From positions 27,653 to 91,652 of the forward strand of contig CAZBLK010000009.1 in NCBI GenBank assembly GCA_964492715.1: DNA of 64,000 nt. The letters are read 5' to 3'. Position 1 is the stretch's first letter. Each line of letters begins with the position of its first letter. The stretch is from an uncultured Defluviitaleaceae bacterium (GTDB taxonomy: Bacteria; Bacillota; Clostridia; Lachnospirales; WRBF01). Positions 21,001-24,000 of this stretch are shown here, one piece after another. A program made the position numbers.

Positions 21001-24000
21001 CGTATGCCGATTGGCTGTATGACGTAATGAATGGCTTAGGTATACAAAAGGCTGTTTTAGCGGGAGCTTCTCTTGGTGCGTGGCTTGGGGCGATGTTTGC
21101 AATTAATTACGGTGAAATGGTAGAAAAGCTCATACTTCTGTGTCCTGCTGGTATTGGTTCGCAGAACCATGCGTTTAAAGAAATTGCGTTTAATCTTCTT
21201 TCCAAAGGTGAGATGGGTGTAAATCTTTTATTTGCAGAAATTAACGGCGGTGTGGATGTGCCTGAACCTATTCTTAACTATAACAAACTAATCTCAGCTG
21301 TTTTCAATGCAAGGCAGGAGGTTATACCTGTCTTTTCCGATGAGGAGCTAAATAAAATCACAATGCCCAGCTTGCTTATCGTCGGAGCAAAAGACATTAT
21401 GCTAAATTCTAAGGAAACAGCGGAACGCTTTGCAAAGTGCGTTCCTAATGCAAAAACTATTATGCTTCCAGATGCTGGACACTCGCTATATGGATTGTCG
21501 GCGGATATGATGGAATTCATAGAAAGGTAGGTGTGAATATGTCACTTGGATACGCAATTTTAGGTATTTTAGGGAAAACTCCGATGAGTGGGTATGATAT
21601 AAAAAAGCTGATGCAAACAACTGATTTTATGCACTGGTCGGGTAATAACAATCAAATTTACAAAGCTTTGTTAGAGCTTGCAGACGAGGGATATGTCACC
21701 TCGGAGGTACAAGAACAGGACAGCCTGCCAAACAAAAAGCTATACCATATCACTGCCGATGGAAAAATGGCGCTTAAACGATTTATCTTGTCGCCCCCTC
21801 ATATGCCGAGCTTTAAAAACCCGTTCCTGATACGGCTTGCCTTTTCAGACGCACTTGACGAAGCAGAGTTACTCGATTTATTAACGAGGTATGAAACAGA
21901 GGTAAAATTACAGTGTATGCTTTGCAAAAACACAAAAAACAATGCCTTGGCTACCGAACAATCAAGGCGTGAAGCCCTTGTACTGTCAGCGGTTTATCAA
22001 AATGCCGCTAACATGTACGAATGCGAGCTTGCGTGGGTGCAGGAACTAAAAAAAGGTTTAGAGAAAATTGTGTTGCAAGGCAACGTAATACAATGTGATA
22101 ATGAAGCTCTGCCTGAAAAGAAACTGCTGTACTACGAGGTGGTAAGCAAACCGAATGGAAGCTATATCCTCATTAATTCCCAAATCCATAATGAAACGGC
22201 CGGACTGTCTGTTTTGGAGGCTTGCGCCGAAAGTGGCTGCAATTTAGTTATACTGTCCCCACAAACGCTTCCGGAAGATTTCTTTCGGCTTGAAAACGGT
22301 TTTGCCCCGTCGTTTTTGCAAAGGCTTTCTAATTACTCCGTTTATGTTGCGGTTTTGGCTGATGCCGACAGCTACAAAGGAAAATTCAAAAAGACACTTG
22401 CAGCCCTAAAGAGCAACAGTAATTTAAAAATATTTGATGATATGGAAAAAGCTGAGGATTGGCTTTTGTCAAGAGAACCATTATGAAAAAGGCATCAACA
22501 ATTATTTTGAGGCTTGCGCTCCTAGCAATGGCTGTGGTTATGCTTGGCATATGCTTTGGAATTGGCTGGACGGTGAATGCCGAGGGCAGGTCGAACTCTG
22601 AATATAGCTATGTGGGTATTATTCTGCTTATAGGTACCTGTTCGGCAGCAGTTCCATTCTTCATTACTCTGTTTCAATCGGCAAAGCTCCTTAGCATAAT
22701 TGACCGTGGGCGTGTATTCTCCGAACAGTCTATTAACGCTCTGTCAGCAATCATCCGCAGCACACTTGTGGTGTTTGCGGTTTGTACCATAGGCGGCCTG
22801 CCGTTTTTTTATATGATAGCCGAAATGGACGAGGCTCCCGGTGTAATCTTTCTTGGTATGGCAATTTCGGGTATTGTGTTTGCCATTGCCATGTTTGCCT
22901 ACGTTTTGCGGTGGCTACTTAAAGAAGCAATTGGATATAAGGAAAGGTGTGCAACATGAACATCACAGAAAAAAACAACGTTGCTGTACTGCAAAGCGAC
23001 AAACTACTTATAACAGACTCACAGTCAGCACTTGACCTTGCTATGACGGTGCAGTATGAAACGCAGTGCAACCAAATTATTATAAACAAAGATAACATTC
23101 ATGAAGATTTTTTCAAACTTTCAACAGGGCTTTTGGGCGATGTTTTGCAGAAATATGTAAACTATCGTATAAGGCTTGCTGTTGTTGGAGATTTTTCGGT
23201 ATACACTAGCAAGCCTCTCCACGATTTCATTGGTGAAAGCAACAAAGGAAACAGCTTTTTCTTTGTTGTAAGTGAGCACGAGGCGATGGCTAGGTTAACT
23301 AAGAGCAGTTCCAGTTTTTAACTATATTGGCAGAAGGAAGCCAAACTCCTAGCCGTTTGGCTTTTTAACCGATATACAGTATTGATTAAAAACGGAATTG
23401 TCATAATTAATGTTCACAACCTTATTTTGTCGCATTGTCATTGTTAATGTTCATACAAACAATAGATTTTTGTGCAATACCAATATCTTTTGCAATCACT
23501 TCACACTTGGTCATTAACAAAAAATATATGTTTTTACCGACTTGTTCGCTTAAACTCTCATAGTTTGCTTGCCCCTTAGATATAACTATATCGGCAGCTT
23601 GATATATGTGCTTGAATTCATCACTTGTTCGACTAATAACCGTCCCCATTGAATCATCGCCGTTACTAATTATATCTGCATACTCATCTATTCCTACAAA
23701 ATAAGCATCATCTTCAATTGAATCGTTTACAACAGGCTTTCCTCTTACGCCAAAGTAAATATGAATAGAGGGATTATACTCCTTAATTTTCTTGATTAAG
23801 AGCTTATCTAAACATATTTCGCCGCAATTATCACCAAGATACAAAAGGATGTTAGCTGATGCAAGGTCGTTAATCAATTTTTCTGTATGATTTATTGTAA
23901 GAGATAAATTATCTACCTCCTCAAAACATTTCATTATTTCTTCTAAACTGCTATTATGGATAGGGTTGAAATCTATTAGGTTGCCTATTATTGCATACTT

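What the first reader, a model, noticed from the sequence alone, without database searches (positions are those of the whole stretch)
23306..23400. 95-bp repeat with 17-nt terminal inverted repeats and an internal terminator (copy A) supplies the stop codon of the DUF4180 gene
- 23306-23400 aligns to 40670-40764 with 83/95 identities and no gaps.
- The ends are inverted repeats: CAGTTCCAGTTTTTAAC … GATTAAAAACGGAATTG.
- The centre is GCCAAAC-TCCTAGCC-GTTTGGC followed by T5. This acts as the terminator between the convergent DUF4180 and DUF89 genes.
- The last six codons and the TAA of the DUF4180 ORF (…SSSSF*) lie inside the element. Insertion therefore appears to have remodelled the gene's 3' end.
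- Size, TIRs and lack of coding capacity fit a MITE/Correia/RUP-like non-autonomous element. I do not recognise this sequence as a described family.
Basis: seen in the sequence. Interest (0 to 1): 0.65.

Follow-up and report, generated by a model that had tools for sequence, protein, structure and literature searches.

The report
New small mobile repeat (MITE) family
The 95-base repeat is a real, roughly 101-base non-coding mobile element that duplicates a TA on insertion, has at least six copies in about 72 kb of an uncultured gut-type Clostridia genome, and in one case now supplies the last codons and stop of a gene; this is a new family of a well-known kind, not a new kind of thing.

Summary
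Window 23306-23400 matches 40670-40764 at 83/95 with no gaps, the flanks are unrelated, and no Rfam family matches.

- The unit is 101 bp (A 23303-23403, B 40667-40767).
- It has about 27-nt imperfect terminal inverted repeats starting 5'-YAGCAATTCC.
- It has a central hairpin followed by a T-run.
- It is flanked by TA.

The window also holds a 27-nt end fragment (24636-24662) and possibly a decayed copy (20499-20613). The 7.3 kb just left of the window (Logan contig L083) holds three more copies. One of these is a canonical copy split exactly at a TA by a 54-nt mini-derivative flanked by TA/TA. That is a nested insertion, and it is direct evidence of transposition with TA duplication, as in IS630/Tc1-mariner.

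Removing copy A and one TA rebuilds ...ACT TAA (…ARLT*), which fits the C-termini of homologues. The element therefore probably landed in the gene's own stop codon.

No transposase lies in the 72 kb, and no copy was found in other genomes, metagenomes, plasmids or phages. The terminator role is plausible but inferred. Verdict: a new member of a known kind, of modest interest.

The parts
23303..23403 (+). Copy A, full-length 101-nt element. It fills the spacer between the convergent DUF4180 and DUF89 genes.
   Evidence: 83/95 identical to copy B (88% over 97 nt). Both termini have diverged (GAG... / ...TCA instead of TAG... / ...CTA).
23301..23302 (.). Left flank of A (AA), the presumed mutated copy of the TA target duplication.
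   Evidence: By analogy with copies C, E and the mini-element, which are flanked TA/TA. Inference.
23404..23405 (.). Right TA flank of A (target-site duplication).
   Evidence: TA + A (23406) directly after ACT (23298-23300) would restore an in-frame TAA once the element is removed.
23303..23329 (+). Left terminal inverted repeat of A. It holds codons SSSSF and the TAA stop (23319-23321) of the DUF4180 gene.
23377..23403 (+). Right terminal inverted repeat of A.
23340..23366 (+). Core hairpin GCCAAAC/GTTTGGC with an 8-nt loop, followed by T5. It is terminator-like on the + strand. On the - strand the same stem is followed by TTCCTTCT.
   Evidence: -15.2 kcal/mol on +, -14.2 on -. Not called by the consensus scan. 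Function is inferred.
22956..23321 (+). DUF4180 gene (121 aa). Its last five codons and stop are element sequence.
23422..24303 (-). DUF89/ARMT1-like gene, convergent with DUF4180. Its stop lies 18 nt from the right end of A.
40667..40767 (+). Copy B, full-length 101-nt element in the leader region of the Na/Pi-cotransporter-PhoU gene. It ends 21 nt before the ATG at 40789. Flanks are TA (40665-66) and AA (40768-69).
   Evidence: Gene identity. A promoter-like site TTGATT-17-TATAAT at 40516-40544 lies upstream.
40704..40733 (+). Core hairpin of B: GCCAAACG / CGTTTGGC with a 6-nt loop and tail GTTTTGAC.
   Evidence: -13.3 kcal/mol. Not called as a terminator.
24636..24662 (-). Isolated 27-nt end fragment (TAGCAATTCCGCTTTTAATCGACATTA) preceded by TA (24634-35). 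It is a right-type TIR in inverted orientation, lying between the ABC-F and DUF89 genes.
   Evidence: 25/27 to B's right end, E = 2e-6 with the ends model. The next 75 nt do not align to the element.
20499..20613 (-). Possible strongly decayed copy between the divergent AbgT and hydrolase genes.
   Evidence: local alignment score 48 against shuffles of 30 +/- 4.8 (maximum 46.5). One end is AAAAACTCAAATTGCTATA. Marginal.

Best explanation
[quoted passage not shown] Its closest relatives in the species collection are Defluviitaleaceae MAGs.

**Anatomy.**
- The unit is about 101 bp.
- It has two imperfect terminal inverted repeats of about 27 nt: 5'-YAGCAATTCC(A)GTTTTTAAYCGAYATTG.
- These enclose a core of about 45 nt with a G+C-rich hairpin followed by a T-run.
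- It has no coding capacity.

**How it moves.** A transposase encoded elsewhere in the genome moves it in trans. Insertion goes into a TA dinucleotide, which is duplicated. That is the signature of IS630/Tc1-mariner enzymes. The choice of enzyme family is inferred, and the enzyme itself was not found.

**Copy A.** It most probably inserted into the TA of the native TAA stop codon of the DUF4180 gene. The reading frame then ran on into the left inverted repeat (now ...K SSSSF) and stops at the TAA inside TTTTTAA. The element now makes up essentially the whole spacer between two convergent genes that would otherwise lie about 16 nt apart. Its hairpin and T-run are the only terminator-like structure there, so it likely ends the DUF4180 transcript and perhaps weakly the DUF89 transcript. 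This is inferred.

**Copy B.** It sits in the leader of the Na/Pi-cotransporter gene and would be co-transcribed as a long hairpin.

**Shown.** Repeat family, TIRs, TA flanks, nested insertion, gene-end overlap.

**Inferred.** Transposase family, present-day activity, terminator and other RNA-level effects.
For: **Multi-copy and dispersed.**
- The window holds A, B, one end fragment and one marginal decayed copy.
- The 7.3 kb left of the window on Logan contig L083 holds C, D and E.
- Flanks are unrelated.

**Size variants typical of decaying transposons.**
- E has a 20-nt internal deletion.
- D has a 26-nt internal duplication.
- The mini-element is 54 nt.

**TIRs.** The ends model finds paired inverted ends only at these sites in 72 kb. 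The whole unit folds as one long hairpin with z = -5.5 and -5.7.

**TA duplication.**
- C, E and the mini-element are flanked TA/TA.
- B, D and A each have one TA and one single-base variant.
- The isolated end has TA.
- The TA background is 7%.

**Nested insertion.** Deleting the 54-nt insert plus one TA from C restores an ungapped match of about 93% to B across the whole unit. The insert's own termini are TAGCA... and ...TGCTG.

**Empty-site reconstruction for A.** It gives ...ARLT-TAA. DUF4180 homologues end 1-8 residues after the same conserved L, for example ...EKLT*.

**Orthologous site.** The nearest relative, at 72% amino-acid identity, has the same PHP-to-Na/Pi-cotransporter synteny but lacks the element.

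**Other points.**
- No Rfam family matches.
- TA duplication by IS630/Tc1-mariner elements and IS630-linked MITEs (RUP) are established (PMC2170065, PMC2229807).
- MITE clusters with nested insertions and terminator-like MITEs (SPRITE) are known (PMC10969869).
Against: - No autonomous element or transposase with matching ends was found. None lies among the window's ORFs or the flanking contigs.
- No copy was found outside this organism. Exact-pattern scans of species genomes, JGI metagenomes and viral contigs gave nothing. BLAST against plasmids and phages gave nothing. nhmmer on 1.3 Mb of relatives gave nothing.
- A protein-database search for ORF tails read through the element found nothing, so genome-wide copy number may be modest.
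- No true empty site in a close relative or strain could be examined. The next-best DUF4180 homologue is only 68% identical.
- Three of six full copies have one imperfect TA flank.
- Copy A's termini carry several substitutions, so the stop-codon reconstruction assumes an ancestral TA.
- The terminator scan did not call the hairpin in A or B.
Confidence: 0.8

Rival explanations
1. A family of structured RNAs (a cis-regulatory leader or attenuator, or a small RNA) that recurs next to several genes. On this reading the inverted ends are a closing stem, not transposase sites.
For: - Strong predicted folds, z about -5.5.
- Copy B lies in the leader of a transporter gene, downstream of a good promoter-like site, and contains a hairpin plus U-run.
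- All copies whose transcriptional context is clear (A, B, E, the end fragment and probably D) lie sense to local transcription.
Against: - No Rfam match.
- The neighbouring genes are functionally unrelated: DUF4180, Na/Pi transporter, GGDEF, GyrI-like, ABC-F.
- Copy A lies at a gene's 3' end and overlaps its coding sequence.
- Orthologous leaders in 80 relatives lack it.
- Differences between copies break pairs rather than compensate, and D and E have lost the core hairpin.
- The nested insertion with TA duplication has no RNA-gene explanation.
- The orientation bias rests on about 5 cases (p about 0.06).
Confidence: 0.05
2. Non-mobile repeated extragenic palindromes (REP/BIME-like or SPRITE-like terminator modules). 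These would be spread and homogenised by recombination or gene conversion, or serve as binding sites for a host protein.
For: - Intergenic location.
- Palindromic architecture.
- Terminator-like core.
- No transposase found nearby.
Against: - REP units are 20-40 nt, lack long TIRs and lack target duplications.
- Here the TIRs are about 27 nt, TA flanks are present, and one copy is precisely interrupted at a TA by a derivative with a duplicated TA.
- Clustered, nested and internally deleted copies are the usual picture for MITEs (PMC10969869).
Confidence: 0.07
3. Two chance or duplicated pieces of ordinary intergenic DNA (segmental duplication or assembly artefact) with no family behind them.
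For: Only two full copies lie inside the 64-kb window itself.
Against: - E-values of 1e-22 to 1e-31.
- Flanks are at random identity.
- Further copies lie on an independently assembled Logan contig, and the same sequence appears in several samples.
Confidence: 0.01

Closest known systems
RUP (repeat unit of pneumococcus), an IS630-Spn1-dependent MITE of Streptococcus pneumoniae
   Same: - About 100 bp (RUP is 107 bp) and non-coding.
- Has TIRs, inserts at TA and folds as one long stem-loop.
- Mostly intergenic, found in a Gram-positive (Bacillota) host, and inserts into other repeats (PMC2229807, PMC10969869).
   Different: - No sequence relationship was shown.
- RUP's TIRs match a known IS (IS630-Spn1), whereas no parent IS is known here.
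- The TIRs here are longer (about 27 nt against 9 contiguous pairs listed for RUP).
- The core carries a hairpin plus T-run.
Correia / NEMIS elements of Neisseria
   Same: - 100-155 bp with TIRs of about 24-26 nt and a TA duplication.
- 5'-TA-3' at the termini (PMC2229807, Table 1).
- Co-transcribed with neighbouring genes, and some copies are fused to ORFs.
- From my own memory, Correia ends also read TA-TAG..., as here. This is a lead, not a test.
   Different: - Different phylum and different sequence.
- Correia elements carry promoters and an IHF site, and RNase III cleavage is demonstrated. None of these was found or tested here (no promoter-like site inside the element).
[quoted passage not shown]
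   Same: Small interspersed repeats whose transcript contains a terminator-like hairpin or alters the 3' end of upstream mRNAs (PMC10969869).
   Different: Terminator activity is only inferred here. Whether SPRITE has comparable TIRs or a TA duplication was not checked.
Rickettsia palindromic elements and other MITEs fused in frame to genes
   Same: Element sequence is translated as part of a host protein (PMC2229807).
   Different: Here only about 5 C-terminal residues and the stop are contributed, at a position where homologues have variable tails. This is not an internal in-frame insertion.

Membership tests
Bacterial MITE (generic) | Small size (about 50-400 bp) and no coding capacity | tested here: met
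   The unit is 101 nt. All six frames are closed within 28 codons or fewer, with no internal start.
Bacterial MITE (generic) | Terminal inverted repeats | tested here: met
   Imperfect TIRs of about 27 nt in A, B, C and E. Paired end hits occur only at element sites.
Bacterial MITE (generic) | Target-site duplication | tested here: met
   TA/TA at C, E and the nested mini-element. One-base variants at A, B and D. TA background is 7%.
Bacterial MITE (generic) | Multiple dispersed copies in one genome | tested here: met
   Five full or near-full copies, one mini-element, one end fragment and one marginal copy in about 72 kb. The rest of the genome could not be read.
Bacterial MITE (generic) | Evidence of movement (filled versus empty sites) | tested here: inconclusive
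   - The nested insertion in C is an internal filled/empty comparison and favours movement.
- The orthologous leader in a 72%-identical relative lacks B.
- No strain-level empty site was available.
Bacterial MITE (generic) | Autonomous IS with matching ends in the same or a related genome | not testable with these tools
   - No transposase in the 72 kb.
- The source MAG is absent from the scannable collections.
- ISfinder is not available.
IS630 / Tc1-mariner-derived MITE | Insertion into TA with 2-bp TA duplication | tested here: met
   (the nested insertion adds exactly one TA). The property of the family is from PMC2170065.
IS630 / Tc1-mariner-derived MITE | TIR sequence similarity to a member IS and a DDE/D transposase that binds it | not tested
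   No candidate IS was available for comparison.
Rfam structured RNA families | Score at or above a family's gathering threshold | tested here: not met
   The only hit in the window is a tRNA at 57503. In E-value mode the elements give only microRNA-type hairpin noise at 16-19 bits against cut-offs of 55-96.
REP / BIME (RAYT-associated) | 20-40-nt imperfect palindromes, no long TIRs, no target duplication | tested here: not met
   The unit is 101 nt with 27-nt TIRs and TA duplications.
Intrinsic (rho-independent) terminator | G+C-rich stem-loop directly followed by a U-run | tested here: inconclusive
   - A has a 7-9-bp stem at -15 kcal/mol followed by T5.
- B has an 8-bp stem followed by GTTTT.
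- The consensus scan called neither.
- No transcript data are available.

The most novel reading that the evidence does not exclude
The family is more than selfish DNA. Every copy whose transcriptional context is clear lies sense to local transcription, and intact copies carry a hairpin plus U-run. It may therefore act as a mobile terminator or attenuator cassette that the host has co-opted. Two candidate roles are separating convergent genes that were only about 16 nt apart, and gating the leader of the Na/Pi-PhoU transporter. Alternatively, it may be moved by a TA-duplicating enzyme outside the IS630 family.
Probability: 0.1. Interest if true: 0.5.

Novelty: new member of a known kind. Interest (0 to 1): 0.3.

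Why it matters
- It adds a MITE family to a poorly sampled, uncultured branch of Clostridia.
- It gives a clean textbook case: a nested insertion with TA duplication, and an insertion into a stop codon that rewrites a protein tail and replaces the spacer between convergent genes.
- For annotation, it explains an odd C-terminal SSSSF tail and a spurious 31-aa gene call.
- It flags repeats that can break assemblies.
- It does not open a new mechanism or a long-standing question.

Tried and rejected
1. **Known RNA family.** Rfam at gathering threshold on the whole window and in E-value mode on both copies gave nothing relevant.
2. **Segmental duplication.** Flanks are unrelated.
3. **Copies elsewhere.**
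   - The exact two-end pattern gave 0 hits in genome contigs, metagenome contigs and viral contigs.
   - A 21-nt end pattern in metagenomes gave one hit. It is a chance match inside a sugar-ABC ATPase coding sequence (…SIKNGIAM…).
   - BLASTN against plasmids found nothing, and against phages only a 26-nt chance match.
   - nhmmer with the element model and the ends model on 80 relatives' loci (1.3 Mb) found nothing.
   - A literature search for the TIR strings found nothing.
4. **Peptide trick.** I searched the 5.8-billion-protein set with the ORF tails that the element would add to genes reading into it. No candidate was found.
5. **'ESSSSTLH' tail.** This tail of a 62%-identical DUF4180 homologue (P0007) looked like a second SSSS tail. 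Its DNA has no element, so it is a coincidence.
6. **End fragment as a full copy.** I tested whether the fragment at 24636 is a full-length decayed copy whose far end supplies the ABC-F stop codon. The interior and far end align no better than shuffles, so this is rejected.
7. **Composite transposon around DUF89.** The A end and the fragment end both point towards the gene, not away from it. Rejected from the orientation of the ends.
8. **Logan contig breaks at 20542/20584 as a sign of insertion polymorphism.** Uninformative; they flank an A-run.
9. **A 4-bp TAYA duplication instead of TA.** Rejected, because the nested insertion adds only TA to a TTTTAAC target.
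Full report
**1. The observation**

Window 23306-23400 and 40670-40764 are 83/95 identical without gaps.
- The repeat finder extends the match to 97 nt at 88%. BLAST gives E = 9e-23 and nhmmer about 1e-31.
- The 100 nt on either side are 26-29% identical, which is random (alignment). This is a discrete repeat and not part of a larger duplication.
- The inverted ends, the central GCCAAAC/GTTTGGC hairpin and the T5 run are as described.
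- The DUF4180 ORF ends AAG AGC AGT TCC AGT TTT TAA at 23301-23321. Five codons (SSSSF) and the stop lie in the repeat, one fewer than stated.
- Pfam hits on record confirm DUF4180 (PF13788) and the convergent ARMT1-like/DUF89 gene (PF01937).

**2. Not a known RNA**

- Rfam at gathering thresholds finds only a tRNA at 57503-57573 in the whole window.
- In E-value mode the two copies give only microRNA-hairpin noise, 16-19 bits against cut-offs of 55-96.
- Both copies fold into one long hairpin with z-scores of -5.5 and -5.7. Any unit with long inverted ends would do this.

**3. More copies**

Inside the window:
- There is a 27-nt isolated end at 24636-24662, in inverted orientation. It matches B's right end at 25/27 and is preceded by TA.
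- There is a marginal, strongly decayed copy at 20499-20613.

Outside the window:
- The exact DUF4180 and HrcA proteins occur on Logan contigs from runs SRR10912415-418.
- One contig, L083, extends 7.3 kb beyond the left edge of the window. It holds three more members.
  - C (L083 about 6389-6545, +).
  - D (about 6695-6816, +), decayed, with a 26-nt internal duplication.
  - E (about 4490-4568, -), with a 20-nt internal deletion.

A model of the ends finds significant, paired, inverted hits only at these sites in the 72-kb composite. All copies are intergenic or at gene ends. They lie next to unrelated genes: DUF4180/DUF89, Na/Pi-cotransporter-PhoU, ABC-F, WYL/GGDEF-EAL, and DUF3788/GyrI-like.

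**4. Boundaries and target duplication**

- Aligning all ends shows that the inverted repeat is about 27 nt. Written from each terminus it reads YAGCAATTCC(A)GTTTTTAAYCGAYATTG. Left and right arms are distinguishable by single-base indels that A and B share.
- With that boundary the unit is 101 nt: A = 23303-23403 and B = 40667-40767.
- The dinucleotide outside the ends is as follows.

| Copy | Left / right flank |
|---|---|
| C | TA / TA |
| E | TA / TA |
| mini-element | TA / TA |
| B | TA / AA |
| D | TA / CA |
| A | AA / TA |
| isolated end | TA |

- TA makes up 7% of dinucleotides in the window.

**5. A nested insertion**

- Copy C is interrupted inside its left inverted repeat.
- Removing 54 nt (TAGCAATTTAAG...CGGAAGTGCTG) plus one TA restores ...AGCTTTTAACGATATTGG... 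The restored sequence matches B without gaps at about 93% over the whole unit.
- The insert's own termini (TAGCA... and ...TGCTG, whose reverse complement is CAGCA) are family termini. Its arms are recognisably decayed TIRs.
- One family member therefore inserted into another at a TA and duplicated that TA. This is the strongest evidence here for transposition.
- It also excludes a longer (TAYA) duplication, because the target TTTTAAC contains no such sequence.

**6. What moves it**

- A 2-bp TA duplication at a TA target is the hallmark of IS630/Tc1-mariner transposases (PMC2170065).
- The pneumococcal MITE RUP is attributed to IS630-Spn1 on the same grounds (PMC2229807).
- I could not find the enzyme. 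The window's ORFs are housekeeping or accessory genes with no transposase domain (Pfam tables).
- The source genome is not in the scannable collections.
- The IS630-type assignment is therefore an inference from the target duplication. I hold it at roughly 55%.

**7. What copy A did to the gene**

- Removing the element and one TA joins ...AGG TTA ACT to TA-ATTAATG. This gives ACT TAA, a protein ending ...ARLT* of 116 aa.
- DUF4180 homologues end 1-8 residues after the same conserved leucine, and some end exactly ...KLT*.
- The simplest history is insertion into the TA of the native TAA stop. After that the frame ran into the left TIR and stopped at the TAA within TTTTTAA.
- This assumes that the left flank, now AA, was TA. 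The first bases of A's left end carry three substitutions relative to the consensus, so the reconstruction is plausible but not proven.
- Before insertion the two convergent stop codons would have been about 16 nt apart. Now the 100-nt spacer is essentially all element.
- The core hairpin has a predicted energy of -15.2 kcal/mol on the + strand, followed by T5. On the - strand it is -14.2, followed by TTCCTTCT. It is the only terminator-like feature there.
- The consensus scan did not call it, and there are no transcript data. The terminator role is inferred, at about 50%.

**8. Copy B**

- It ends 21 nt before the ATG (40789) of a Na/Pi-cotransporter-PhoU gene, just upstream of the GGGGG ribosome-binding site.
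- It lies about 120 nt downstream of a good promoter-like site at 40516-40544. It is probably transcribed within the leader.
- The nearest relative, an uncultured Defluviitaleaceae MAG at 72% amino-acid identity, has the same upstream PHP gene but no element. None of the 80 relatives' loci has one.
- This argues against a conserved leader RNA and for an insertion. At this distance the spacers are not alignable, however.

**9. Rivals**

- *RNA family.* This is disfavoured for several reasons.
  - The gene contexts are unrelated.
  - The element is absent from orthologous leaders.
  - Differences between copies break pairs rather than compensate, and D and E have lost the core hairpin.
  - The nested insertion has no RNA-gene explanation.
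- *Orientation trend.* I note that A, B, E, the end fragment and probably D all lie sense to local transcription. With about five informative cases (p about 0.06) this is only a hint.
- *REP-like immobile palindromes.* These do not fit the long TIRs and the TA duplications.

**10. Comparison and verdict**

- In architecture and behaviour this is a MITE of the RUP/Correia type: about 100 bp, TIRs, TA duplication, a long stem-loop transcript, clustering and nesting (PMC2229807, PMC10969869). It also has a SPRITE-like terminator-shaped core.
- It is not shown to be a sequence member of any named family. I found no copy in any other organism or in the literature.
- It is a new member of a known kind, with a tidy insertion-into-stop-codon story and modest general interest.

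Noticed in passing
L083 6389-6545 (7.3 kb left of the window): Canonical copy C is split at a TA in its left TIR by a 54-nt mini-derivative flanked by TA/TA. In the mini-element the A-run and T-run of the two arms are swapped relative to full copies.
   Followed up: yes
window 24577-24672 (-): A 31-aa gene is called on the Logan contig (MHKIMSIKSGIAIEDTNKNAVNEILKTLGYK). It starts inside the isolated element end, so it is probably a spurious call created by the fragment.
   Followed up: partly
window 24733-26300 (-): The ABC-F-type ATPase is called as two ORFs that overlap by 4 nt: 80 aa at 26058-26300 and 442 aa at 24733-26061. Both have ABC_tran hits. This may be a frameshifted or split gene.
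   Followed up: no
L084 404-424 (JGI contig Ga0129308_1017681): The right-end TIR sequence CGATTAAAAACGGAATTGCTAT occurs by chance inside a sugar-ABC ATPase gene, where it encodes SIKNGIAM. No element is present there.
   Followed up: yes
window 20542-20584: Logan contigs from at least two runs end at 20542, and another starts at 20584. Both positions flank an A6 run inside the possible decayed copy. This may reflect strain variation or a graph bubble.
   Followed up: partly
window 21533-23321 and 60542-61003: An operon-like run PadR-DUF4180 fusion / DUF2975 / DUF4180 lies upstream of copy A. A second DUF2975 gene, next to an HTH_26 gene, lies near 60.5-61.2 kb.
   Followed up: no
L002 1090-1240: In the nearest relative, the Na/Pi-cotransporter leader has its own set of hairpins (for example GGCAGTGAAAAATATCATTTTTTCACTGCC). 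They are unrelated to the element, and a leader structure there is possible.
   Followed up: no
window 8616-8690 and 9183-9257: A 75-nt direct repeat at 71% identity lies inside the FMN_bind-domain gene (7848-9563). It is probably an internal domain duplication.
   Followed up: no
window 57503-57573: A tRNA gene (Rfam 68 bits). Logan contig L082 begins inside it, which is consistent with a repeated tRNA breaking the assembly.
   Followed up: no
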